This document shows positions 30,244 to 42,674 of a DNA stretch of 64,000 nucleotides, piece by piece. The stretch is from contig OY761556.1 of the NCBI GenBank assembly GCA_963664705.1, positions 3,680,001-3,744,000 on the forward strand, in the 5' to 3' direction. Both the position numbers and the translations under genes were made by a program. The stretch's first letter is position 1. The number at the start of each line of letters is the position of its first letter. The notes under the pieces were generated by a model. That model saw only the letters and a program-made list of their open reading frames with translations. It ran no database searches and was not told where the DNA came from. This DNA comes from Acidobacteriota bacterium (GTDB lineage Bacteria; Acidobacteriota; UBA6911).

Positions 30244-33200
30244 TTATTGCCCAGGTATTGCGGACAGTACCGACAGGCTGTTCGTGCCGAATAGGGCGAA
30301 CGAAGCAACCGGCTTGTCGGCAATCACGCGGATGTATCCGGATGTTCCATTCTGTCCTGCCATGGATGGGAAAAGTTCGGTTACAAGCCGAGCTATTCTG
30401 TTCATCCCGGGCAGTGTCTGGGTGGTCTGAGCCATCACCTGGCCGTTCTCGGAAACGAACTGAATAACCACATTGGCATTGGCAAGGCTGGGGTTCAATA
30501 CCGCAACACCGGTGAAGTACATGTCGTTGGAAGCCACCTGGCTGTAGGTGATGGAATTCCTTAAACTGTAGACCAGTGGCAGTGACGAAGCGAAGGATTG
30601 ACCATTCATGTTTCCGAAGACTGTGGACCCAGCCAACCGGATTCCATCGCTCTCGATTCGAACATATCCGGCGGTAGTCGTTTCCAAATCCAGGGCCGCG
30701 AAGAATGAGGGATCATCAATCCAGATTTTGCCTTGGGCTCCAATCACAACCTCTTTACTGGAACCGATCTGGACCCCATCTCCCCCGTACAGCTGAAGAG
30801 TAACCAGCCCCGGTCGGGAATCCAGGTTGATAATCGACAGACTTGTTTTATAGGAACCACCCATGGCGTACTGGGGTGAATAGAGAACTGTTCCACCTGC
30901 ACTTCGATCCTGTCCGCTCAATGAAGCGATGTCACCAACATCGGGCGTCATCAATTCGAAGGATTGCAGTCCTTTCGGGGAGCGAATGAGCACATAGTCG
31001 CTCGGATCCGGCTGATATCCCGTGAACAAATCGCCAAACAGATCGACCACGATAGCGCCATTCCCATTGACGGGGCGGGATTGGGAACTTCTCACGCTTC
31101 CATCCGCCTTCATGAGGTCGATTGTGACGATTCCGCTGCCAGGCTCGGTATTGGCAAGGTTGATTTTTGTCGACCCTGCCGGCACGATTTCGCTCAGGAT
31201 CACATCCCGGAATGGAGCATACCCGAAGCTTGCCCCATCCATTTCGCTGTTGTCCTCATCAAACCCGAGGTAGAAACCCACCACATCGGAACTGTCACTC
31301 TCCACCCTGATCCAGCCGTTCGCGGTGACATTGGCAAAGCCTTTCCCAAAAATATCCAGATCCATAATAGCGATCCTGGCAACTGGACCAATCGGAGAAG
31401 TCGCGGGGTTCACAATATCGGGGCCCGTGATCAGTTCCCCATTACTATCGACGGCTGTAAAGGTGAGGTCTGATTGTGTGCTGCTCATATTGGCAAGCGC
31501 GAGACCAAACATTGTCTGATTCCCTGCAGCGCTTCTCACCTCGTTGGAGTTGGCAGAGGTGAAAAGAGGCAGCGCCACCAGGAGCTTTCCGCGACTGTTT
31601 GTTGTGAATGTCGATTCTGGTGTAACCCCCTGGTTCCCGTCCGGATCGGCGGATTTGATTCTAAAGTTGTACTGAGTCGACTTCTGCAGATCATTGATCG
31701 TCAGCGAGTGCGTCGTCGCCATATCATTAATTACCGAGAGCCCGACCGGCTGGTTGGCCCGCCAGAATTCCACTCGGGAATTAGCAACAACATCCGTCGT
31801 CCAATTAATGGTGACACTACGGTTTGTGATACCGGTTATCGTGACATCGCTAATAACTGGGGGAACCCCGCTCTTGGCAGTCTGAAAAGTGTAGTCCACA
31901 GAGGTCGAAGGATTGCCCGCCGCGTCCGCAGACTTGATGCGGTAATGATAGGTAGTATTCGCCGCCAAACCTGCCAAGGTCTGGAAGTGCGACGCCACAA
32001 GTATGCTATTCAGGTTCGTTGTATTGCCATAGGTTGCACTGGCGCCGTATTCCACCTGCGTGTCCGCGGCCTCATTCGTCGTCCATGTGATAGCAGCGCC
32101 TGAACCTGTGATATTGATTGCGGCTACGTTGCTGATAACGGGGCCCGTTGTATCTTTCCCCATGGACGTGGTGAACGTATAATCACTGGAAATAGCCGGA
32201 TTGCCGGCCGCATCGCTCGATTTTACGCGATAGTGATACTGCGTATTCGCTGTCAACCCACTCAAGCCTTGCGAGTGCGTTGTCGACAGCGTGGCATCCA
32301 ACATCGTGCTGCTGCCATAGCTCGCGCTCGTTCCATATTCCACCTGCGAATTGGCCGCTTCATTGGTGGTCCATGTAATGGTCGCACTCGAACTGGCAAT
32401 GCTTGTAGCCGTCACCGCGGTGATGACCGGCGCTGTTTTATCCTGAGTGGCGGAGGTGGTGAAGGTATAATCCCCCGATGTTGCAGGATTGCCGGCCGCA
32501 TCGCTGGATTTCACGCGATAGTGATACAGCGTGTTGGCGGTCAAGCCGCTCAGGCTTTGGGAGTGGGAGGTTGCAAGCGTCGCATTCAGCGTAGTGCTGC
32601 TGCCATAGCTCGTGCTTGTCCCGTACTCCACCTGTGTATTGGCCGCTTCGTTGGTAGTCCAGGTTATGGTTGCCCCTGAACTTGTGACGCTCGATGAGCT
32701 CACACTGCTGATCGTTGGAGCAGTTGTGTCCGGCGAGGCAGATGTCGTAAATGTGTAATCGCCCGACGTTGCCGGATTGCCGGCCGCATCGCTGGACTTC
32801 ACGCGATAGTGATACAGCGTGTTGGCGGTCAAGCCGCTCAGGCTTTGGGAGTGGGAGGTTGCAAGCGTCGCATTCAGCGTGGTGCTGCTGCCATAGCTCG
32901 TGCTTGTTCCATACTCCACCTGTGTGTTGGCCGCTTCGTTGGTGGTCCAGGTTATGGTTGCCCCTGAACTTGTGACGCTCGATGAGCTCACACTGCTGAT
33001 CGTTGGAGCGGTTGTATCCGGCGTGGCAGACGTAGTGAATGTATAGTCACTGGATGTTCTCCCGTTACCGGAACCGTCACTGGATTTCACCCTGTAATGA
33101 TATAGGGTACCGGCAGTCAGGCCGCTCAGACCTTGGGAATGCGAAGTTACAAGCGAGGCATTCAGCGTGGTGCTGCTGCCATAGCTCGTGCTTGTTCCAT

Positions 33201-34656
33201 ACTCCACCTGCGTGTTGGCCGCTTCATTGGTGGTCCAGGTTATGGTTGCCCCTGAACTTGTGATGCTCGAAGAACTCACGTTGCTGATTGTCGGGGCGGT
33301 GGTATCCGGTGTGGTGGTGGTAGTAAAGGTATAGTCACCGGATGTTGCCGGGTTGCTCGACGCATCGCTGGATTTCACGCGATAGTGATACAACGTGCCG
33401 GCAGCCAGACCGCTCAGGCTTTGGGAATGCGAGGTCACCAGCGTGGCAATCAGGGTCGTGCTGCTGCCATAGCTCGCGCTCGTTCCATACTCTATCTGTG
33501 TTGTGGCTCCTTCATTAGTGGTCCAGGTAATGGTTGCACCCGTGCTGCTGATGCCGGAAGAAGTCACATTGCTGATCGTTGGAGGCGTGACATCCGCAGC
33601 CGCCGAGGTTGTAAAGGTGCAATCCCCGGAAGTTGCCGGATTGCCGGCGGCATCGCTGGATTTCACGCGATAGTGATACACCGTGCCGGCGGCCAGGCCG
33701 CTCAGGCTTTGGGAATGCGAGGTTACCAGCGTGGCATTCAGTGTTGTGCTGCTGCCATAGCTCGCGCTTGTTCCGTATTCCACCTGTGTGGTGGATCCTT
33801 CATTGGTGGACCAGGTAATGGTTGCACCTGTGCTGCTGATGCCGGCAGAGGTCACATTGGTGATCGTTGGAGGCGTGGTATCCGCAGCCGCCGAGGTTGT
33901 AAAGGTGTAATCACCGGAAGTTGCCGGATTGCCGGCGGCATCACTGGACTTGACGCGATAGTGATACAACGTGCCGGCCGTCAGACCGGTCAGACTCTGG
34001 GAATGCGAGGTTACCAGCGAAGAATTCAGGGTAATGGTGCCGTAACCGGTAGTGGTCCCGTATTCCACCTGCGTGGTAGCCGCTTCGTTGGTGGTCCAGG
34101 TAATCGTCGCCCCTGCGCTGGTGATGCTCGAGGAAGTCACACTGCTGATGGTTGGAGGTGTTGTGTCAGCCGTGGCCTGAACGGTAACGCTGCCGTTAGT
34201 TGAGGTTGTTGTAACAGCCGTGGCATTGGACGCGGACGCTACGACACCGGAGATTGTGACCGGAGTGGTGCCAGCCGAGGCGCTTCCCGAAATTGTGAGC
34301 TGAATATTGGCAACGGTTCCGGACCCGATTGAATTTGTGTTCAGCCCGAAGACAAGGATGCGCACGCCTCCCGTGATCGCATTGCCTTGAGCCTCTTTGT
34401 TTGCAGCGGTTGCAGCCGCTCCTGAAGAGGTACCCGAATAAGTCACGGAGGCGGAGAATGCCAGGTCGAATTGGAGCGTGCTTACGCTGGTGGTGCCAGC
34501 GGTGAACGCAACCGGCAGGGTAACGGTAGCGCCCGGTAGTCCCGAGGCAGTCCCGACTGTCACGGCAGCTGTTTGTGCCATCGCGCCTGTGCTGCAAAAT
34601 GTCAGCATTATCATTAACAGCGCGAAAAATGCGGAATAGTTGTATTTCCTATCCAT
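30244..34656 (-). CDS. Large secreted protein: signal peptide, cohesin-like domain, nine FN3-like repeats, four-repeat C-terminal region
   Basis: PGATVTLPV...LQFDLAF...GTVANIQLTI...NGSVTV (cohesin-like); DTTxPxIxxV...WTTNE...YHYRVKSSD repeats; start re-set to MDRKY. Confidence 0.85.
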   Translation of the reverse strand: MDRKYNYSAFFALLMIMLTFCSTGAMAQTAAVTVGTASGLPGATVTLPVAFTAGTTSVSTLQFDLAFSASVTYSGTSSGAAATAANKEAQGNAITGGVRILVFGLNTNSIGSGTVANIQLTISGSASAGTTPVTISGVVASASNATAVTTTSTNGSVTVQATADTTPPTISSVTSSSITSAGATITWTTNEAATTQVEYGTTTGYGTITLNSSLVTSHSQSLTGLTAGTLYHYRVKSSDAAGNPATSGDYTFTTSAAADTTPPTITNVTSAGISSTGATITWSTNEGSTTQVEYGTSASYGSSTTLNATLVTSHSQSLSGLAAGTVYHYRVKSSDAAGNPATSGDCTFTTSAAADVTPPTISNVTSSGISSTGATITWTTNEGATTQIEYGTSASYGSSTTLIATLVTSHSQSLSGLAAGTLYHYRVKSSDASSNPATSGDYTFTTTTTPDTTAPTISNVSSSSITSSGATITWTTNEAANTQVEYGTSTSYGSSTTLNASLVTSHSQGLSGLTAGTLYHYRVKSSDGSGNGRTSSDYTFTTSATPDTTAPTISSVSSSSVTSSGATITWTTNEAANTQVEYGTSTSYGSSTTLNATLATSHSQSLSGLTANTLYHYRVKSSDAAGNPATSGDYTFTTSASPDTTAPTISSVSSSSVTSSGATITWTTNEAANTQVEYGTSTSYGSSTTLNATLATSHSQSLSGLTANTLYHYRVKSSDAAGNPATSGDYTFTTSATQDKTAPVITAVTATSIASSSATITWTTNEAANSQVEYGTSASYGSSTMLDATLSTTHSQGLSGLTANTQYHYRVKSSDAAGNPAISSDYTFTTSMGKDTTGPVISNVAAINITGSGAAITWTTNEAADTQVEYGASATYGNTTNLNSILVASHFQTLAGLAANTTYHYRIKSADAAGNPSTSVDYTFQTAKSGVPPVISDVTITGITNRSVTINWTTDVVANSRVEFWRANQPVGLSVINDMATTHSLTINDLQKSTQYNFRIKSADPDGNQGVTPESTFTTNSRGKLLVALPLFTSANSNEVRSAAGNQTMFGLALANMSSTQSDLTFTAVDSNGELITGPDIVNPATSPIGPVARIAIMDLDIFGKGFANVTANGWIRVESDSSDVVGFYLGFDEDNSEMDGASFGYAPFRDVILSEIVPAGSTKINLANTEPGSGIVTIDLMKADGSVRSSQSRPVNGNGAIVVDLFGDLFTGYQPDPSDYVLIRSPKGLQSFELMTPDVGDIASLSGQDRSAGGTVLYSPQYAMGGSYKTSLSIINLDSRPGLVTLQLYGGDGVQIGSSKEVVIGAQGKIWIDDPSFFAALDLETTTAGYVRIESDGIRLAGSTVFGNMNGQSFASSLPLVYSLRNSITYSQVASNDMYFTGVAVLNPSLANANVVIQFVSENGQVMAQTTQTLPGMNRIARLVTELFPSMAGQNGTSGYIRVIADKPVASFALFGTNSLSVLSAIPGQ
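31600..34170 (-). repeat. Intragenic tandem array, 288-bp (96-aa) period, 9 units
   Basis: GCCGGCCGCATCGCT recurs at 32491 and 32779; central units nearly identical; boundaries approximate. Confidence 0.9.
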
Positions 34657-34721
34657 ATCCGACCTTTTCACAGAGTGGTTTTTTCCAGGAAGAGCAGTAA
34701 GAGAGCGTTGATTGCGGGAGC

Positions 34722-35222
34722 TCATTGGCAGCTCCCCTGAGTCAAAATGGCGTTGTTGAGCAGCTGAAGATCGAGAACATTGATGGAACCGTCGCCGTTG
34801 AGGTCATAGATACCGCTGCCGGCTGATAGGATGACGTTAACGAGCAATTGAAGATCGAGCGCGTTTGTCAAGGAGTCCGCATTGAGGTCACATTTATTTG
34901 TAGGGGCACCAATGACTTGGGAAATTTCGTTGGAAAAATCACTCTCGTTCCCGATTGCGTCAAAGGCGGTGACCGCAAAGTAATAGGTCCCATTAGGAAG
35001 CCCGGAAACGGTGTAATTGGTTTGGTTTCCGATAGTGATTGGAGCGCCGTACGTGTGCGAACTATTACCGTAATAAACCTTGTATCCGGTGATGCCTGAG
35101 GAAGAGCTTGCATCCCATTCCAGTGCTACATCCGTGGCCAAAGCCGTGGCAGAACAGCAGAAAAGAAGCAGCAGAATCGGCAGCGTATGAAGGAAGCCAT
35201 CAAGGAAACGCCTGTTTTTCAT
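34722..35222 (-). CDS. Secreted FN3 + dockerin protein
   Basis: Signal peptide; FN3 (LEWD..GYKVYYG..YYFAVTAFD..ESDFSNE); duplicated Ca-loop/helix DLNADSLTNALDLQLL / DLNGDGSINVLDLQLL. Confidence 0.88.
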   Translation of the reverse strand: MKNRRFLDGFLHTLPILLLLFCCSATALATDVALEWDASSSSGITGYKVYYGNSSHTYGAPITIGNQTNYTVSGLPNGTYYFAVTAFDAIGNESDFSNEISQVIGAPTNKCDLNADSLTNALDLQLLVNVILSAGSGIYDLNGDGSINVLDLQLLNNAILTQGSCQ

Positions 35223-35399: not shown

Positions 35400-35711
35400 A
35401 TGAAAAAACCTCTTAAAACCGTCGGCGTCAAGGAGCTTAAAAACAACCTCAGCTCTTATCTCCGTGAGGTCCGCGGCGGTGCCAGCGTTCTTGTCACTGA
35501 TCGCAACAATATTGTCGCAGAATTGCACGAACCCTATACCCGGCCTGACATTGCCGGCTCTGTTCATCCGCTGCTGCTGTCGTGGGCGGAATCGGGATCC
35601 ATAAGGCTCCCATTGGCAGGCAAGGAGCCTCTTGCTCTTCCCGGCCTTCGGAATCCGGTTGGGACTGTGAAGTCAATATTGGAAAATGACCGAAAGGAAT
35701 CCGGCGATTGA
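35400..35711 (+). CDS. Phd/YefM-family antitoxin
   Basis: TVGVKELKNNLSSYLREVRGG..VLVTDR. Confidence 0.9.
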   Translation: MKKPLKTVGVKELKNNLSSYLREVRGGASVLVTDRNNIVAELHEPYTRPDIAGSVHPLLLSWAESGSIRLPLAGKEPLALPGLRNPVGTVKSILENDRKESGD

Positions 35712-36145
35712 GAACCATTTATTTTGAAACTTCGGCACTCCTGGCATGGCTGCTGGGCGAACCTGCGGCCGGAGAAGTGAAGTCGCACATTGACAACGCT
35801 CAATCGGTAGCAACATCCTGCTTAACGCTTCTCGAGGCGGAAAGAGCTTTGATTAGAGGAGAGATTCAAGGTGTGTTGACTGCCAGCGACGCCGAAAAAT
35901 TGCGTGGACTCCTGGCAAGGGCGCAATCGGGGTGGGTACTGATGGAGATTTGCGAAGAAGTGCGGATGCGGGCAAGCCGATTCTTCCCCTCAGAACCCAT
36001 ACGAACACTGGATGCCATTCACCTGGCAACAGCACTGGTGTTCACCCGGGTATTCCCCGCGCTGGAGATTCTCAGCTACGACAGGCGCATCGCAAAGAAC
36101 GCGGCAGCCCTCGGCATTCCAACAACAATCAAGCTTCCCGCGTAA
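35708..36145 (+). CDS. vapC: VapC-family PIN-domain toxin
   Basis: YFETSAL, LLEAERAL, RTLDAIHLATA, SYDRR; 4-nt overlap with antitoxin. Confidence 0.9.
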   Translation: MRTIYFETSALLAWLLGEPAAGEVKSHIDNAQSVATSCLTLLEAERALIRGEIQGVLTASDAEKLRGLLARAQSGWVLMEICEEVRMRASRFFPSEPIRTLDAIHLATALVFTRVFPALEILSYDRRIAKNAAALGIPTTIKLPA

Positions 36146-36422: not shown

Positions 36423-37802
36423 CTAACTTCCCTTTTTTACCAATACGGTTTTTACCGTTTCCATCAGGATAAGGCCATCCAGAACCCACGACATATTCTT
36501 AATGTAGAATAAATCGTACTGGAGCTTTTCAACCGTGTGATCCAGCGTGTTTGCGTAGCCATAGTTTATCTGGGCCCAACCGGTAACTCCGGGCTTGACA
36601 ACATGGCGCAGTGGATAAAACGGGATGGACTCCGATAATTGCTGTACGAAGTGAGGCCGCTCCGGTCGTGGCCCGACCAGACTCATATCGCCGCGCAGAA
36701 CATTCCAGAGCTGTGGCAACTCGTCAAGACGCGTCGCCCTCATGATTCGGCCGACACGGGTGACCCGTGGGTCGTTTTCGGTGCTCCAGACAGGCCCCGT
36801 TTGAGTCTCAGCATCCTGACGCATGGACCGAAACTTGATCAGAGTGAAATTCTTCCCATCCTGACCTACTCTTTCCTGTTTATAGAAGACCGGTCCTTTC
36901 GAATCCAGTTTGACCATGATCATGAGCAACAGGATGACCGGCCAAAGCAACAGGAGCCCTATGGCCGAGATGAGCACGGAAAGAATCCGTTTTTCGGTCA
37001 ACATCCGTCTGGAAACACTGAATCCGCTGTTGAATACCATCCAGCTTGGCTTCAGATTCTCAATTGGGATCTTTCCAGCCACGCGTTCATAAAAGGTAGT
37101 AGCCTCCTCGACAGCAACGCCTCGCGTTTTGAAATCGAGGAGTTCTTTGATGGGAAGCTTCCCTCTCCGATCCTGCAATCCCACCACAATTCGGTCGACC
37201 TTGTGCTTGGCAACCAAATCCGAGAGATCTTCATAAAGACCGATCACCTTCGGGTTGACGATGGATACTCCAACCAGTTCGGGACTATCGCCAACAAACC
37301 CGACAACCTTGATTCCCAGATCCGGGTGTTTCAGGATTTCCCGAACCGCCTCACGCGCCAGGTTCCCGGTCCCCAACACCAACAGGTTTGTCCGGGGCGT
37401 TCTGATCCCGAGGTAAAGCCGGAGGATCGTATGCCAGATGAGCAGAAAGACTGTGCTCAGCAGAAGGCTGATGCCGAAGACTCCCCGGCCAAGCATGGCA
37501 TCGGGAGCCGCAAAGTTCAGCACACTGAGCGCAAGAGTAGCCATTAAAAGAGCCTGGCATATGCGGATGACGTATTCTTTAGAGGCACGCGCCTGACGGA
37601 ACTCGTAAATATCGTTTAAGTGCAGGAAAAGTTGAAAGATGGCAGCAACCAGAAGCGCCTGAAGCATGAAATGCTTAGGGGCGCCGGGCATAAATGGCGA
37701 GCTGCCGATGCGGACATAGTACGCCCCGAAAACACACCACATGATCAGCAGCGTTTCGGCAAACACCGCCCCAAGTTTCCGCAATGCCAGATATCGCCAC
37801 AT
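36423..37802 (-). CDS. Priming sugar transferase, PEP-CTERM/XrtA-system type (TIGR03013-like)
   Basis: N-terminal TMs, CoA-binding-like domain, [40 protein letters not shown]. Confidence 0.92.
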
Positions 37803-38700: not shown

Positions 38701-40743
38701 ATGCGGATCATCCTATCAGTGCTTTTATCGTTAGCACTTATTCCATCCATCCGCCAAAGGCCGGAGTGGAATAGATTTATTATCTTCGTCTGGCAGTACC
38801 AGACTGACGTTCTCCGCGACAAAGCACTCTACGAACAAGCGGGGCTCCATGCCTTCCATATTGACCGCGGCGACGGCGAGGACGAACTCGTCAAATTTTC
38901 AATCAAGAACAATTTTCCATATTATGTCGACCACGCCGCAGGAAAAGGCATTCTTTATCTTTCCAACTCGCTGCGCCCCCAGGTAACCGGAAAACGCGAT
39001 TTACTCATTCGCCCCCGTAGTCTTGCCGACCCAAACGTCATCAAGGAATTACAAGACCTGCTTCGCGCTAATATTTCCACCACGCAAAAGGGACTTGCTT
39101 ATGCATACGCCTTCGATGATGAGATCTCGCTGGGTTCATTCAACTCTCCTGCCGAGGTAGACGTTCACCCGCTATCCATTGCCCGGTATCACCAATGGCT
39201 TTCCGAGCGCTACGGCACGATTGCGCGACTAAATGCGTCTTGGGGTACATCCTACGAATCTTTCAACGATGTCCAACCGGTCAGCTTTGAAGACGTCCGC
39301 AAATCCGCCAATTCTCCTCCCTTCGCGAATTGGAATCTTTCGCGCTGGATGGAGTGGCGCCATTTTATGGACTATCAGTTTGCGAAGGTTCTCTCTGACC
39401 TGACCCAGTATGCAAATAAGCTGGATCCCCGAATTCCGGCAGGCTTTGTGGGCGGACAACAACCCTCGGCCTACGGGGGCTACGACTATGCCTATCTCAG
39501 CCGGGCGGTTCAATGGATGGAGGGGTCGGATGAATTGCTGCGGTCTTTCTGGAATCGTCCGCGGCGCCCACATGTTCAGACCTATAATATTACCGGTTCA
39601 GTCACAAGAGATACCTGGACACTCTGGTACCGCCTGGCTCACGGCGATCAGGCTGGGATTGCCTGGCCGGATGGCTGGTTTCGCACCGATTCATTGACCG
39701 GCAAGCGAATGCTGACAAAGGAAATCCAGGAACTTGCGCCGGTTTTTCGCGAAATTCAGGGCCCGGCAAGCGAATTTATCGTGAATCCGGACACCCATCT
39801 CGAGACCGATCCCATAGGGATTTACTATTCGCATCCCAGCATTCGGGCCGGGTGGGTAATGGATAGCATAACCCATGGCAGTACCTGGCCCAATCGCGCC
39901 TCCAGCCTTGATGATGAGAATTCGTCCTCGGCTCATCTCCGTTCCTCGTGGTGCCGACTGCTCGAGGATCTGGGGTATCAGTATGATTTCATAAGCTATC
40001 TGGACGTCCAGGAAAAAAAGATTGATTTGAATCAGCGTTTTAAGGTGATCGTCCTCCCACAGACCATTTGCCTCTCCGACGTTGAAGTTGAAGCACTGAG
40101 GTCATTTGTAAAATCCGGAGGAATTCTGATCGCGGACGATCTTACAGGCTTACTGACAGACACAGGACGCGGACGCAAACAGGGGGCTTTGGATGATCTC
40201 TTCGGAATTGTCCGTGACGAGTCCAAGGGATACCTGGACGGGAGAGGATTGACCGAGATCGACGCGGAATATGGAAACAAACCATTTCAGGATCGGCTTC
40301 GAGCCTATCCGGGGTCTCTGCACAAAGGACCACTGGTTGTTTTTGAAAGAGGCACGCAACAGAAAATCCAAAACAGCAGGGCAATTTACCTAAACCTGAC
40401 CCCGCTGGCTTATGAACACTGGCGGAATGATCGTCCGGGGCAAGAGTGGCGTACGCTGATAGGAAACACGCTGAAGGAATTGGGAGTGCCGCCTCGTATA
40501 ATGACGAATTTGCCCTTTGTGGAATCGCTGCTTTGGCGAAATGGCGATCGGTATGTGCTCGCCATTGTAAAAAACAGCGAGGGAGAGACTCAACGAACCG
40601 GGCAACAGATTCGTATTCAACTGGGAATAGATGCAAAAAATATCAGAAACATCCGAACCGGAAAGGCGTTAGCCGGGCCAGACTTTACAGACGAATTCAA
40701 TCCCTGCGAGGCAAATCTCTATGGTTTTACGGGGCCCAGGTAA
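38701..40743 (+). CDS. Secreted GH42-like (beta-galactosidase catalytic + trimerisation-like domain) protein
   Basis: WLSERYGTIARLNASWGT, WMEWRHF, FKVIVLPQ...FVKSGGILIAD; AFDDE candidate acid/base. Confidence 0.65.
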   Translation: MRIILSVLLSLALIPSIRQRPEWNRFIIFVWQYQTDVLRDKALYEQAGLHAFHIDRGDGEDELVKFSIKNNFPYYVDHAAGKGILYLSNSLRPQVTGKRDLLIRPRSLADPNVIKELQDLLRANISTTQKGLAYAYAFDDEISLGSFNSPAEVDVHPLSIARYHQWLSERYGTIARLNASWGTSYESFNDVQPVSFEDVRKSANSPPFANWNLSRWMEWRHFMDYQFAKVLSDLTQYANKLDPRIPAGFVGGQQPSAYGGYDYAYLSRAVQWMEGSDELLRSFWNRPRRPHVQTYNITGSVTRDTWTLWYRLAHGDQAGIAWPDGWFRTDSLTGKRMLTKEIQELAPVFREIQGPASEFIVNPDTHLETDPIGIYYSHPSIRAGWVMDSITHGSTWPNRASSLDDENSSSAHLRSSWCRLLEDLGYQYDFISYLDVQEKKIDLNQRFKVIVLPQTICLSDVEVEALRSFVKSGGILIADDLTGLLTDTGRGRKQGALDDLFGIVRDESKGYLDGRGLTEIDAEYGNKPFQDRLRAYPGSLHKGPLVVFERGTQQKIQNSRAIYLNLTPLAYEHWRNDRPGQEWRTLIGNTLKELGVPPRIMTNLPFVESLLWRNGDRYVLAIVKNSEGETQRTGQQIRIQLGIDAKNIRNIRTGKALAGPDFTDEFNPCEANLYGFTGPR

Positions 40744-41496: not shown

Positions 41497-41781
41497 ATGT
41501 CCCCGTTCGCAGACGAAGTCTGGAAAATATCAAGCGGGTCTCGCTTGCATTATCGAAAATGGCAGAATGAATACGTTTTCTATAATGCGGGATCTGGCGA
41601 TACGCATCTATTGGATGCGGTTTCTGGAGAGGTATTGAGCTATCTGGAAAAGAACCCTTCGACGGTTGAACAGATTTCAGCCGCACTGGGATTTCCGAAG
41701 GATCCGGCTCGACGGGATCTTCTCCCTCAGATAATCCACCATCTTCGCAATGCATCATTGATAGAGCTTGAGTTGCAGTGA
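41497..41781 (+). CDS. PqqD-family/RRE peptide chaperone, HPr-rel-A system (TIGR04353-like)
   Basis: WQNEYVFYNAGSGDTHLLD then three helices ending LRNASLI. Confidence 0.85.
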   Translation: MSPFADEVWKISSGSRLHYRKWQNEYVFYNAGSGDTHLLDAVSGEVLSYLEKNPSTVEQISAALGFPKDPARRDLLPQIIHHLRNASLIELELQ

Positions 41782-42674
41782 AGATCGGCGAAGCTACCTA
41801 TTCACAGCTGAAGAGCCTGCTGATCGATCAGGGCCTGCCATTTCAATCCGGCCCCTTTTCGATCAAACTTCATACGGACATCCCTGCAATTATCCAGCCC
41901 CTGCAAACCCTGTACTGGGACTATGCGATTGATCCACAAAAGGAATTCTTCGATTTCCATATTTCGGTGAAACGGGCAAAGGGCCTCCGCCGATGGTGGA
42001 AACCGCAGGTCCGCTTTCTCTTGCAGAACGAATCTTTCTTTTTTCCCTTTCCCATTAGCCTTTCGTATCCACTATTCGAATGGGGGCTCAACTGGTGTAT
42101 ATCCTCCCAGGCAAATCAGTATCTTATTATCCACTCGGCTGTGTTGGAACGTAACGGTCAGGCCATATTTCTAACCGCATCCCCGGGAGCGGGAAAAAGC
42201 ACTCTTGCCGCGGCATTGACATTCCGTGGTTGGAGGCTTCTCTCAGATGAACTGGCTCTTATCCGGCTGACGGACACTCGCGTTGCACCATTGGCCAGAC
42301 CCATCAGCATCAAGAATGACTCTATCCCAATAATCAGAAACTATGCGCCTGAAGCGGTAATCGGCCCTATCTGGCATGACCCGGAAGGCACGGTTGCGCA
42401 CATTCGTCCGCCCCGAGAATGCGTCGACAAAGCGAACGAGCTTGCGAGACCTTCTGTAATACTCTTTATGGCCTACAAGCCCGATTCAAACACCGAAGTG
42501 ACGCCCGTACCCAAATCAAGGGCGTTTTTGAGGATGGGCGAGAACGCCTTTAATTACAGTCTGCTGGGAACAGCCGGGTTTGAAACCATGGCGAACCTGA
42601 TTGAGGCATGCAATATTTACGAGTTTTATTACAGCGACCTCGATGATGCAGTAGCGCAACTTGCATCCCTATAG
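41778..42674 (+). CDS. HprK-related kinase A (TIGR04352-like)
   Basis: RRWWKPQ, FEWGLNWCI, IIHSAV, ASPGAGKST, LLSDE, GTVAH, NAFNY. Confidence 0.9.
   Translation: MKIGEATYSQLKSLLIDQGLPFQSGPFSIKLHTDIPAIIQPLQTLYWDYAIDPQKEFFDFHISVKRAKGLRRWWKPQVRFLLQNESFFFPFPISLSYPLFEWGLNWCISSQANQYLIIHSAVLERNGQAIFLTASPGAGKSTLAAALTFRGWRLLSDELALIRLTDTRVAPLARPISIKNDSIPIIRNYAPEAVIGPIWHDPEGTVAHIRPPRECVDKANELARPSVILFMAYKPDSNTEVTPVPKSRAFLRMGENAFNYSLLGTAGFETMANLIEACNIYEFYYSDLDDAVAQLASL

What the first reader, a model, noticed from the sequence alone, without database searches (positions are those of the whole stretch)
30244..35222. Adjacent dockerin and cohesin genes with no enzymes: a non-cellulosomal cohesin-dockerin surface assembly
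Seen: a 166-aa secreted FN3 protein ending in a duplicated Ca-binding loop-helix (DLNADSLTNALD / DLNGDGSINVLD) lies immediately upstream of, and co-oriented with, a ~1470-aa secreted protein. That protein begins with a cohesin-like beta-sandwich on a stalk of nine FN3 repeats. Established: cohesin-dockerin pairs build cellulosomes, and non-cellulosomal pairs exist but are mostly of unknown role. Inference: a cognate pair in which an interchangeable dockerin-bearing tip is displayed on a long FN3 rod. Neither partner has a recognisable catalytic domain.
Basis: partly seen in the sequence, partly recalled or inferred. Interest (0 to 1): 0.7.

Follow-up and report, generated by a model that had tools for sequence, protein, structure and literature searches.

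The report
Split surface stalk rejoined by cohesin-dockerin
In this soil-type bacterium a long exported stalk protein that sister species make in one piece is encoded as two overlapping genes carrying a plug and a matching socket that likely snap together, and the small piece ends in an incomplete domain predicted to grip exported enzymes, which would be an undescribed way to display enzymes on the cell.

Summary
In detail: a 166-aa FN3-dockerin gene overlaps a 1493-aa gene for cohesin plus nine FN3 repeats. Pfam and a structure model support both modules.

(1) The last 448 residues are four ASRAH (ASRT-like) beta-sandwiches, a module on 21 ORFs of this genome and likely an envelope anchor.
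(2) Sister genomes encode the same tip, rod and ASRAH module as one chain with no dockerin or cohesin. Directly after the same exopolysaccharide glycosyltransferase gene, 5 genomes are split and 3 fused. The pair therefore likely replaces a peptide link. The tip is conserved, not variable.
(3) The tip FN3 lacks strand A in 120 of 120 homologs, and bare strand-A tails end secreted enzymes near such genes, including a pectate-lyase-like protein here. The tip is likely a strand-complementation catcher.

The genome has one cohesin and three dockerins, one on a zinc peptidase, so this is not a cellulosome. Ten literature searches found no description of it. Verdict: new variant of non-cellulosomal cohesin-dockerin display.

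The parts
34722..35222 (-). Small gene, 166 aa: signal peptide, strand-A-less FN3 'cap', dockerin
35136..35222 (-). Predicted Sec signal peptide of the small protein (res 1-29), read by eye from the hydrophobic stretch and the conserved Ala before the cap
34908..35135 (-). Cap FN3 (res 30-105) that starts at strand B; candidate catcher for strand-A tails
34725..34895 (-). Type I-like dockerin (res 110-166): two DxNxDxxxNxxD loops; Cys111 (114 of 114) and Cys165 (113 of 114) could form a clasp (inferred)
34722..34725 (-). 4-base stop/start overlap, implying translational coupling
30244..34725 (-). Large gene, 1493 aa: signal peptide, cohesin, nine FN3, ASRAH tetrad
34576..34725 (-). Predicted signal peptide of the large protein (res 1-50); the only strongly hydrophobic stretch
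34171..34575 (-). Cohesin (res 51-185), closest to type I cohesins
31591..34167 (-). Rod of nine FN3 repeats (res 187-1045), 38% Ser+Thr
30247..31590 (-). Four ASRAH/ASRT-like beta-sandwiches (res 1046-1493); candidate envelope anchor
35400..36145 (+). Context: Phd/YefM antitoxin and PIN toxin pair lying between the glycosyltransferase and the cap gene; not seen there in the 7 relatives that have the slot
36423..37802 (-). Context: TIGR03013 XrtA/PEP-CTERM-system priming glycosyltransferase, edge of an exopolysaccharide cluster; marks the orthologous slot

Best explanation
The two genes encode the two halves of one exported stalk protein that relatives make as a single chain; the dockerin likely binds the cohesin with calcium to rejoin them, the four-repeat ASRAH module likely holds the base to a cell-envelope sugar polymer, and the strand-less FN3 tip is predicted to capture secreted enzymes by their C-terminal strand. 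Shown: the domains, the gene coupling, the fused orthologs, the missing strand A and the existence of bare strand-A tails. Inferred: binding of dockerin to cohesin (about 0.85), anchoring by the ASRAH tetrad (about 0.6), capture of tails by the cap (about 0.6). The split lets one tip gene serve several stalks of different length, and leaves the cohesin open to other dockerin proteins.
For: Fused orthologs: cap-rod-tetrad in one chain with no dockerin or cohesin in G014 (1323 aa, 8 rods), G010, G015, G021, G022, G023 and G024; the cap runs straight into the first rod repeat at the point where the dockerin begins. Same slot after the glycosyltransferase: split in 5 genomes, fused in 3, of 24 loci examined. 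A second body shows the same alternation: split cap-Doc / Coh-Ig-FG-GAP against fused cap-Ig-FG-GAP, 57% identical over 626 aa. Among the 150 best tetrad proteins, 38 start with the cap, 26 with a cohesin, and 1 has both. Cohesin was found in 8 of 30 genus genomes, all 8 with a cap-dockerin gene. Of 47 distinct cap-dockerin genes, 35 are directly followed by a cohesin gene, 31 of those with overlapping start. Cohesin residues Q85, D87, K110, R122 and N129 are 82-100% conserved in 39 sequences. Tetrad: pLDDT 91; Z 13.8 to TM1070 and 10.6 to ASRT; four homologous repeats; one conserved Asn per repeat. Cap lacks strand A in 120 of 120. Strand-A tails end 14 of 3055 locus ORFs against 2.7 +/- 1.5 in internal windows. 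In 120 homologs of the tagged lyase, 6 end in the tail, 11 carry a dockerin and 8 carry SLH.
Against: Only one tail-tagged cargo was found in this genome, and it lies next to a different cap gene. 7 of the 14 tails are on cap-bearing proteins themselves, so the strand may fold back in cis; 1 of the 14 is an antisense shadow ORF. The non-cap control set (0 of 277) is too small to help. 8 of 43 cap-dockerin genes with enough flank are not directly followed by a cohesin gene. Dockerin proteins occur in G007, G021, G022 and G023, where no cohesin was found (incomplete assemblies). The ASRAH first-strand Trp is absent, and sugar binding by ASRAH is itself only a prediction (PMC2739507). Nothing shows that the proteins cross the outer membrane: no PEP-CTERM match and no transmembrane tail.
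Confidence: 0.6

Rival explanations
1. Open display hub: the single cohesin mainly serves to swap among dockerin-bearing cargoes (cap, M12B peptidase, unknown-domain protein).
For: One cohesin and three dockerins in the genome. All six loops have Ala/Val-Leu/Ile at positions 10-11 and Gln at 14. In other families of the class, amidohydrolase-, propeller- or TIG-bearing dockerin genes lie beside cohesin-ASRAH genes.
Against: The two other dockerin proteins do not track the cohesin. The peptidase has a homolog in 1 of 29 other genus genomes, and it lacks a dockerin. The other has 3 homologs; only one has a dockerin, in a genome with no cohesin found. Fused orthologs carry the cap only.
Confidence: 0.2
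2. Cargo-free structural fibre: the pair is cognate, but the cap is a self-sufficient six-stranded tip that binds exopolysaccharide, surfaces or other cells, and the complex braces the capsule or biofilm matrix.
For: Conserved position at the edge of the XrtA-type exopolysaccharide cluster; only one tagged cargo in the genome; 73 of 136 cap-first proteins end in neither tail, dockerin nor tetrad.
Against: Bare strand-A tails are enriched near cap genes and end unrelated enzymes. The gene is missing from the slot in 16 of 24 glycosyltransferase loci, some cut by contig ends, so it is not a fixed part of the cluster.
Confidence: 0.12
3. Periplasmic tether: both chains stop in the periplasm, where the tetrad binds peptidoglycan and the rod spaces or holds enzymes.
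For: Only Sec-type signals are evident; the published ASRAH tetrads are fused to peptidoglycan amidases (PMC2739507).
Against: A pectate-lyase-like cargo and NHL-repeat or peptidase partners fit the outside better (inference). Four secretin genes could provide a route out (their systems were not typed).
Confidence: 0.05
4. The dockerin and cohesin are relics that no longer bind, and the two chains act separately.
For: Repeated change between split and fused forms shows the cassette is dispensable; the window's dockerin lacks two residues of the linker and differs from the family consensus near its end.
Against: Calcium-loop residues are intact and nearly invariant, the cohesin keeps its conserved residues apart from Asn for Gly at 109 and Ala for Asp at 165, and the coupling persists in 31 of 35 pairs.
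Confidence: 0.03

Closest known systems
Single-cohesin anchoring scaffoldins of cellulosome producers (C. thermocellum SdbA, OlpA, OlpC; architecture recalled, OlpA/OlpC cohesins seen as structural hits 3ul4 and 4dh2)
   Same: One N-terminal cohesin, a long spacer and a C-terminal repeat module that holds a dockerin partner at the cell surface; type I-like fold and calcium loops.
   Different: Diderm host; ASRAH tetrad instead of SLH; FN3 rod; the partner is a small non-catalytic adaptor, translationally coupled; fused orthologs exist.
Non-cellulosomal cohesin-dockerin systems: 'planctosome' (PMC6461901, passages), Ca. Stygibacter complex (PMC8542988, passages), ANME and Archaeoglobus modules (PMC9012536, passages; 2xdh)
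   Same: Cohesin-dockerin display without cellulases. The planctosome model also has an anchor, an adaptor and an M12B peptidase cargo.
   Different: There the adaptor relays through a second cohesin. Here it would relay through a strand-less FN3. The passages read report no fused-versus-split orthologs and no ASRAH anchor.
ASRAH superfamily, secreted tetrad family (de Souza, Iyer and Aravind 2009, PMC2739507, parts 1-2 of 3 read); Pfam ASRT and DUF5719
   Same: Beta-sandwich fold, conserved Asn at the end of strand 2, four tandem copies in a secreted protein, linkage to sugar-polymer genes.
   Different: The published secreted members are Chloroflexi amidases and actinobacterial lipoproteins. 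Here the tetrad is a general C-terminal module of acidobacterial exoproteins, lacks the Trp, and carries a cohesin stalk.
Donor-strand complementation in pili (Pap/Fim; CPR Pam pili, PMC13278184, passages)
   Same: An Ig-like domain missing one strand, with the strand present on another protein.
   Different: FN3 fold; the strand is a C-terminal tail on enzymes; no chaperone or usher seen; predicted 1:1 docking rather than a filament.

Membership tests
Cohesin (type I-like) | Pfam Cohesin above curated cut-off | tested here: met
   45.1 bits against 24.1, profile 2-139
Cohesin (type I-like) | Nine-strand cohesin beta-sandwich | tested here: met
   Model pLDDT 97.4; Z 18.8, rmsd 1.9, 133 aligned to 6kgc; Foldseek TM 0.88
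Cohesin-dockerin pair | Calcium-dependent binding of the two modules | not testable with these tools
Dockerin type I | Two calcium-binding loops with D/N at positions 1, 3, 5, 9, 12 | tested here: met
   Both loops present and 82-114 of 114 conserved per position
Dockerin type I | Loop-helix-helix-loop-helix fold | not tested
Cellulosome | Scaffoldin with several cohesins | tested here: not met
   One cohesin in the 98% complete genome
Cellulosome | Dockerin-bearing glycoside hydrolases | tested here: not met
   Three dockerin proteins: FN3 cap, M12B peptidase, unknown domain
SLH-anchored scaffoldin | C-terminal SLH repeats | tested here: not met
   No SLH hit on the protein; one marginal hit elsewhere in the genome
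ASRAH superfamily | ASRT/TM1070 beta-sandwich fold | tested here: met
   Z 13.8, rmsd 2.3, 103 aligned to 1nc7 for repeat 4; next unrelated row Z 7.2; repeats 1-4 homologous, HHalign 97-99%
ASRAH superfamily | Near-invariant Asn at the end of strand 2 | tested here: met
   N34, N147, N255, N366 of the module, each at least 90% conserved and at a strand end
ASRAH superfamily | Well-conserved Trp at the start of strand 1 | tested here: not met
   No Trp there in the four repeats or in the consensus
ASRAH superfamily | Secreted copies occur as dyads or tetrads | tested here: met
   Four copies
ASRAH superfamily | Sugar binding | not testable with these tools
   Predicted only, also in PMC2739507
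PEP-CTERM/exosortase substrate | C-terminal PEP-CTERM tail | tested here: not met
   16 matches in the genome, none at this locus; exosortase present
Donor-strand complementation | Acceptor domain lacks one strand | tested here: met
   Profile match starts at position 8-17 in 120 of 120 caps; strand-A motif in 0 of 120 against 15 of 39 complete FN3
Donor-strand complementation | Missing strand supplied in trans | tested here: inconclusive
   Tails exist on other proteins but also in cis; binding not modelled

The most novel reading that the evidence does not exclude
A two-tier, cellulosome-like display system in diderm Acidobacteriota, built from three different joints in series. An ASRAH tetrad acts as an SLH-like envelope anchor; a cohesin-dockerin pair is gained or lost repeatedly as a removable coupling in the middle of one protein; and a naturally split FN3 domain catches secreted enzymes by a short C-terminal strand.
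Probability: 0.35. Interest if true: 0.82.

Novelty: new variant of a known kind. Interest (0 to 1): 0.64.

Why it matters
Most non-cellulosomal cohesin-dockerin pairs have no assigned role. Here fused orthologs at the same chromosomal slot say what the pair does: it stands in for a peptide bond. It also names the parts to test. If the other steps hold, the locus gives a function to a large unannotated acidobacterial module (15,132 representatives at E up to 0.001) and a natural tag/catcher pair. It would also show how abundant uncultured Acidobacteriota keep polymer-degrading enzymes at their surface. All three interactions can be tested with small recombinant domains.

Tried and rejected
Sequence search of solved structures with the tetrad profile found 0 matches, and Foldseek gave only TM at or below 0.17; the wide structural search was the informative one. 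A DNA-pattern scan for strand-A tails in 30 genus genomes was at the level of its reversed control and is uninformative. The second-best tail candidate in this genome is an antisense shadow ORF. Promoter and terminator scan: no more sites than shuffles, and none on the minus strand at these genes. No RNA holder was listed. Assembly error at the junction was rejected. A frameshift that fuses the two ORFs was considered and set aside, because the second ORF has its own signal peptide. PEP-CTERM anchoring was rejected. The NCBIfam CbhB hit (111 against a cut-off of 1950) reflects FN3 repeats, not a cellulase. The direction of change (gain or loss of the cassette) was not resolved. The tetrad tree needs 7 changes, at least 4 forced by starred branches. 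One fused clade is rejected (p-AU 9e-50; one fused row was left out after seeing the tree). The tree is unrooted, and the out-of-genus rows were found with a dockerin-bearing query. Peer et al. 2009 (PMC3035643) is not held, so it may list acidobacterial modules that I could not see.

Full report
1. Observation. Both genes are real and lie as described on the minus strand. The small one has an FN3 and a dockerin; the large one has a cohesin and nine FN3 repeats, all above Pfam cut-offs. The dockerin has two complete calcium loops and terminal cysteines conserved in 114 and 113 of 114 homologs. A disulfide clasp is my inference; PMC3821032 (passages) describes non-covalent clasps only. The best-matching named records are Acidobacteriota, one titled UBA6911. 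The genome has 1 cohesin and 3 dockerins by Pfam and by my own profiles, so it has no cellulosome.

2. The pair is conserved and coupled. A cohesin was found in 8 of 30 genomes of the genus, and all 8 have the cap-dockerin gene. Of 47 distinct cap-dockerin genes in the fetched loci, 35 are directly followed by a cohesin gene, 3 have one further on, 5 have none downstream, and 4 lack flank (exact duplicates removed, near-duplicates may remain). In 31 of the 35 the start overlaps the stop. I also looked from the cohesin side (30 of 51 matches fetched; 23 in the same family). There, 14 follow a cap-dockerin gene (one called only), 6 follow another tetrad gene, and 3 stand alone. One tip gene can therefore precede several stalks of different length.

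3. Relatives make it as one chain. G010, G014, G015, G021, G022, G023 and G024 have cap-rod-C-terminal module in a single protein and no cohesin hit. The G014 protein (1323 aa, eight rods) has a cap 67%, a first rod 80% and a C-terminal module 51% identical to the window's. Its cap joins the rod where the window's dockerin begins. Of 24 loci of the neighbouring TIGR03013 glycosyltransferase, the next slot holds the split form in 5 and the fused form in 3; the other 16 hold other genes or end. A second family with an Ig and FG-GAP body shows the same alternation. In a set seeded by the C-terminal module alone, 38 of the best 150 proteins begin with the cap, 26 with a cohesin, 57 with other heads, and 29 begin with a rod or the module itself; 1 has both cap and cohesin. 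Split and fused forms are interleaved on the tree (7 changes, at least 4 forced; single fused clade rejected). The direction is unresolved. This is the strongest argument that the pair is cognate: dockerin plus cohesin occupies the place of a peptide bond.

4. The base. Residues 1046-1493 form four homologous beta-sandwiches. The fourth matches Thermotoga TM1070 (Z 13.8) and Anabaena ASRT (Z 10.6), above the next row at 7.2. Weak Pfam hits agree: DUF5719 in 34 and ASRT in 10 of 36 members. De Souza et al. (PMC2739507, parts 1-2 of 3 read) define this ASRAH superfamily by a near-invariant Asn ending strand 2, found here once per repeat, and a Trp in strand 1, which is absent. They note secreted tetrads and predict sugar binding. 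The profile matches 21 ORFs in this genome, and the module is C-terminal in 137 of the 150 best homologs. A module shared by many different exoproteins fits an anchoring role like that of SLH. This is inference. The protein has no PEP-CTERM tail and no C-terminal hydrophobic helix. Nine FN3 repeats would give about 30 nm (domain length recalled). The locus borders an XrtA-type exopolysaccharide cluster, whose product is one candidate ligand.

5. The tip. The cap starts at FN3 strand B straight after the signal peptide. Against a profile of complete FN3 domains, all 120 caps begin at position 8-17; none has the strand-A motif, which 15 of 39 complete domains show. Bare strand-A-like tails end 14 of 3055 distinct ORFs in my loci, against 2.7 +/- 1.5 for internal windows. 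Five are on cap-less proteins such as an M12 peptidase and a pectate-lyase-like protein; one is on a cohesin-rod protein, seven are on cap-bearing proteins, and one is a shadow ORF. In this genome one secreted pectate-lyase-like protein has the tail; it directly follows another cap gene. Among its 120 best homologs, 6 have the tail, 11 a dockerin, 8 SLH and 1 an ASRAH match, so in that family the tail co-varies with known surface-retention modules. One unknown-domain family occurs with a dockerin, with a complete FN3, or with the bare strand. Against this reading: there is a single cargo here, encoded beside another cap; folding back in cis is possible; 9 of 16 tails beat the 99th percentile on a strand-A matrix, but both sets were picked with the same pattern; and the genus-wide pattern scan was noise. 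Earlier AI notes of this scan propose the same split-FN3 idea in other genomes. I looked them up after my own test; they are leads, not support.

6. Other dockerins. An M12B peptidase and an unknown-domain protein carry dockerins with similar helix starts (position numbering recalled). They may share the cohesin, but they do not track it across the genus. In other families of the class, enzyme-dockerin genes sit beside cohesin-ASRAH genes, so open display exists in the wider group.

7. Known or new. It works like a single-cohesin anchoring scaffoldin with an adaptor, but fails cellulosome and SLH membership. Searches of the open-access library were: cohesin + dockerin + Acidobacteria, Acidobacteriota + dockerin (94), non-cellulosomal terms (28, 67), planctosome (68), ASRT/ASRAH (51), UBA6911 (95), fusion/fission (110), DUF5719 (121) and FN3 strand complementation (128). 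By their listings, none describes this system. The UBA6911 genome paper has no mention of cohesin or dockerin in its main text (its supplements were not seen). I saw passages of PMC6461901, PMC8542988, PMC9012536, PMC3821032 and PMC13278184, and passages plus section 3.1 of PMC12484212. Peer et al. 2009 was not available, and subscription journals are not covered.

8. Verdict. A real, conserved feature and a new variant of non-cellulosomal cohesin-dockerin display. Cognate joint about 0.85; the full three-joint model about 0.35; interest 0.64.

Noticed in passing
G000:C1:4506430-4508860 (L274:2431-4861, +): A cap-rod-rod gene directly followed by a secreted pectate-lyase-like gene ending in a bare FN3 strand-A tail; a candidate tag/catcher pair with no evident anchor.
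   Followed up: partly
G000:C1:1423004-1424398 (-) and 6872679-6873803 (-): Two further dockerin proteins: an M12B zinc peptidase with a C-terminal dockerin, upstream of an ASRAH-bearing NHL-repeat gene on the other strand, and an N-terminal dockerin on a domain with no Pfam family.
   Followed up: partly
G000, 21 ORFs listed: The ASRAH module sits on many different secreted proteins, at either end; a lineage-wide unannotated module with 15,132 representatives.
   Followed up: partly
L103:180-1558 (+): A cap-dockerin gene followed by a cohesin-rod gene that itself ends in a strand-A tail; the two could close a ring or form an alternating polymer.
   Followed up: no
L148:6953-7330, L161:7007-7351, L165:7001-7357: Cap-only proteins that end in their own strand A: circularly permuted FN3, or self-polymerising subunits.
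   Followed up: no
L037 and L038 (family f4): Operons of cohesin-dockerin tandem cargo genes, a small cohesin with an internal insertion, and a cohesin-ASRAH gene; a multi-level scaffold.
   Followed up: no
window 35400-36145 (+): A Phd/YefM-PIN toxin-antitoxin pair sits between the glycosyltransferase and the cap gene on the opposite strand; not seen in relatives with the slot.
   Followed up: partly
window 36423-58457: XrtA/PEP-CTERM-type exopolysaccharide cluster containing an HPr-rel-A cassette (PqqD-like chaperone 41497-41781, HprK-related kinase 41778-42674); the exosortase lies about 15 kb beyond the window end.
   Followed up: no
L286:365-2134 (+): The G006 homolog of the dockerin peptidase carries a complete FN3 and a different C-terminal module in place of the dockerin.
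   Followed up: no
L099: A cap-dockerin and cohesin locus in a record titled Minisyncoccia; horizontal transfer or mis-binning, not checked.
   Followed up: no
window 38701-40743 (+): A 680-aa secreted-looking protein inside the cluster with no NCBIfam family at 1e-8.
   Followed up: no
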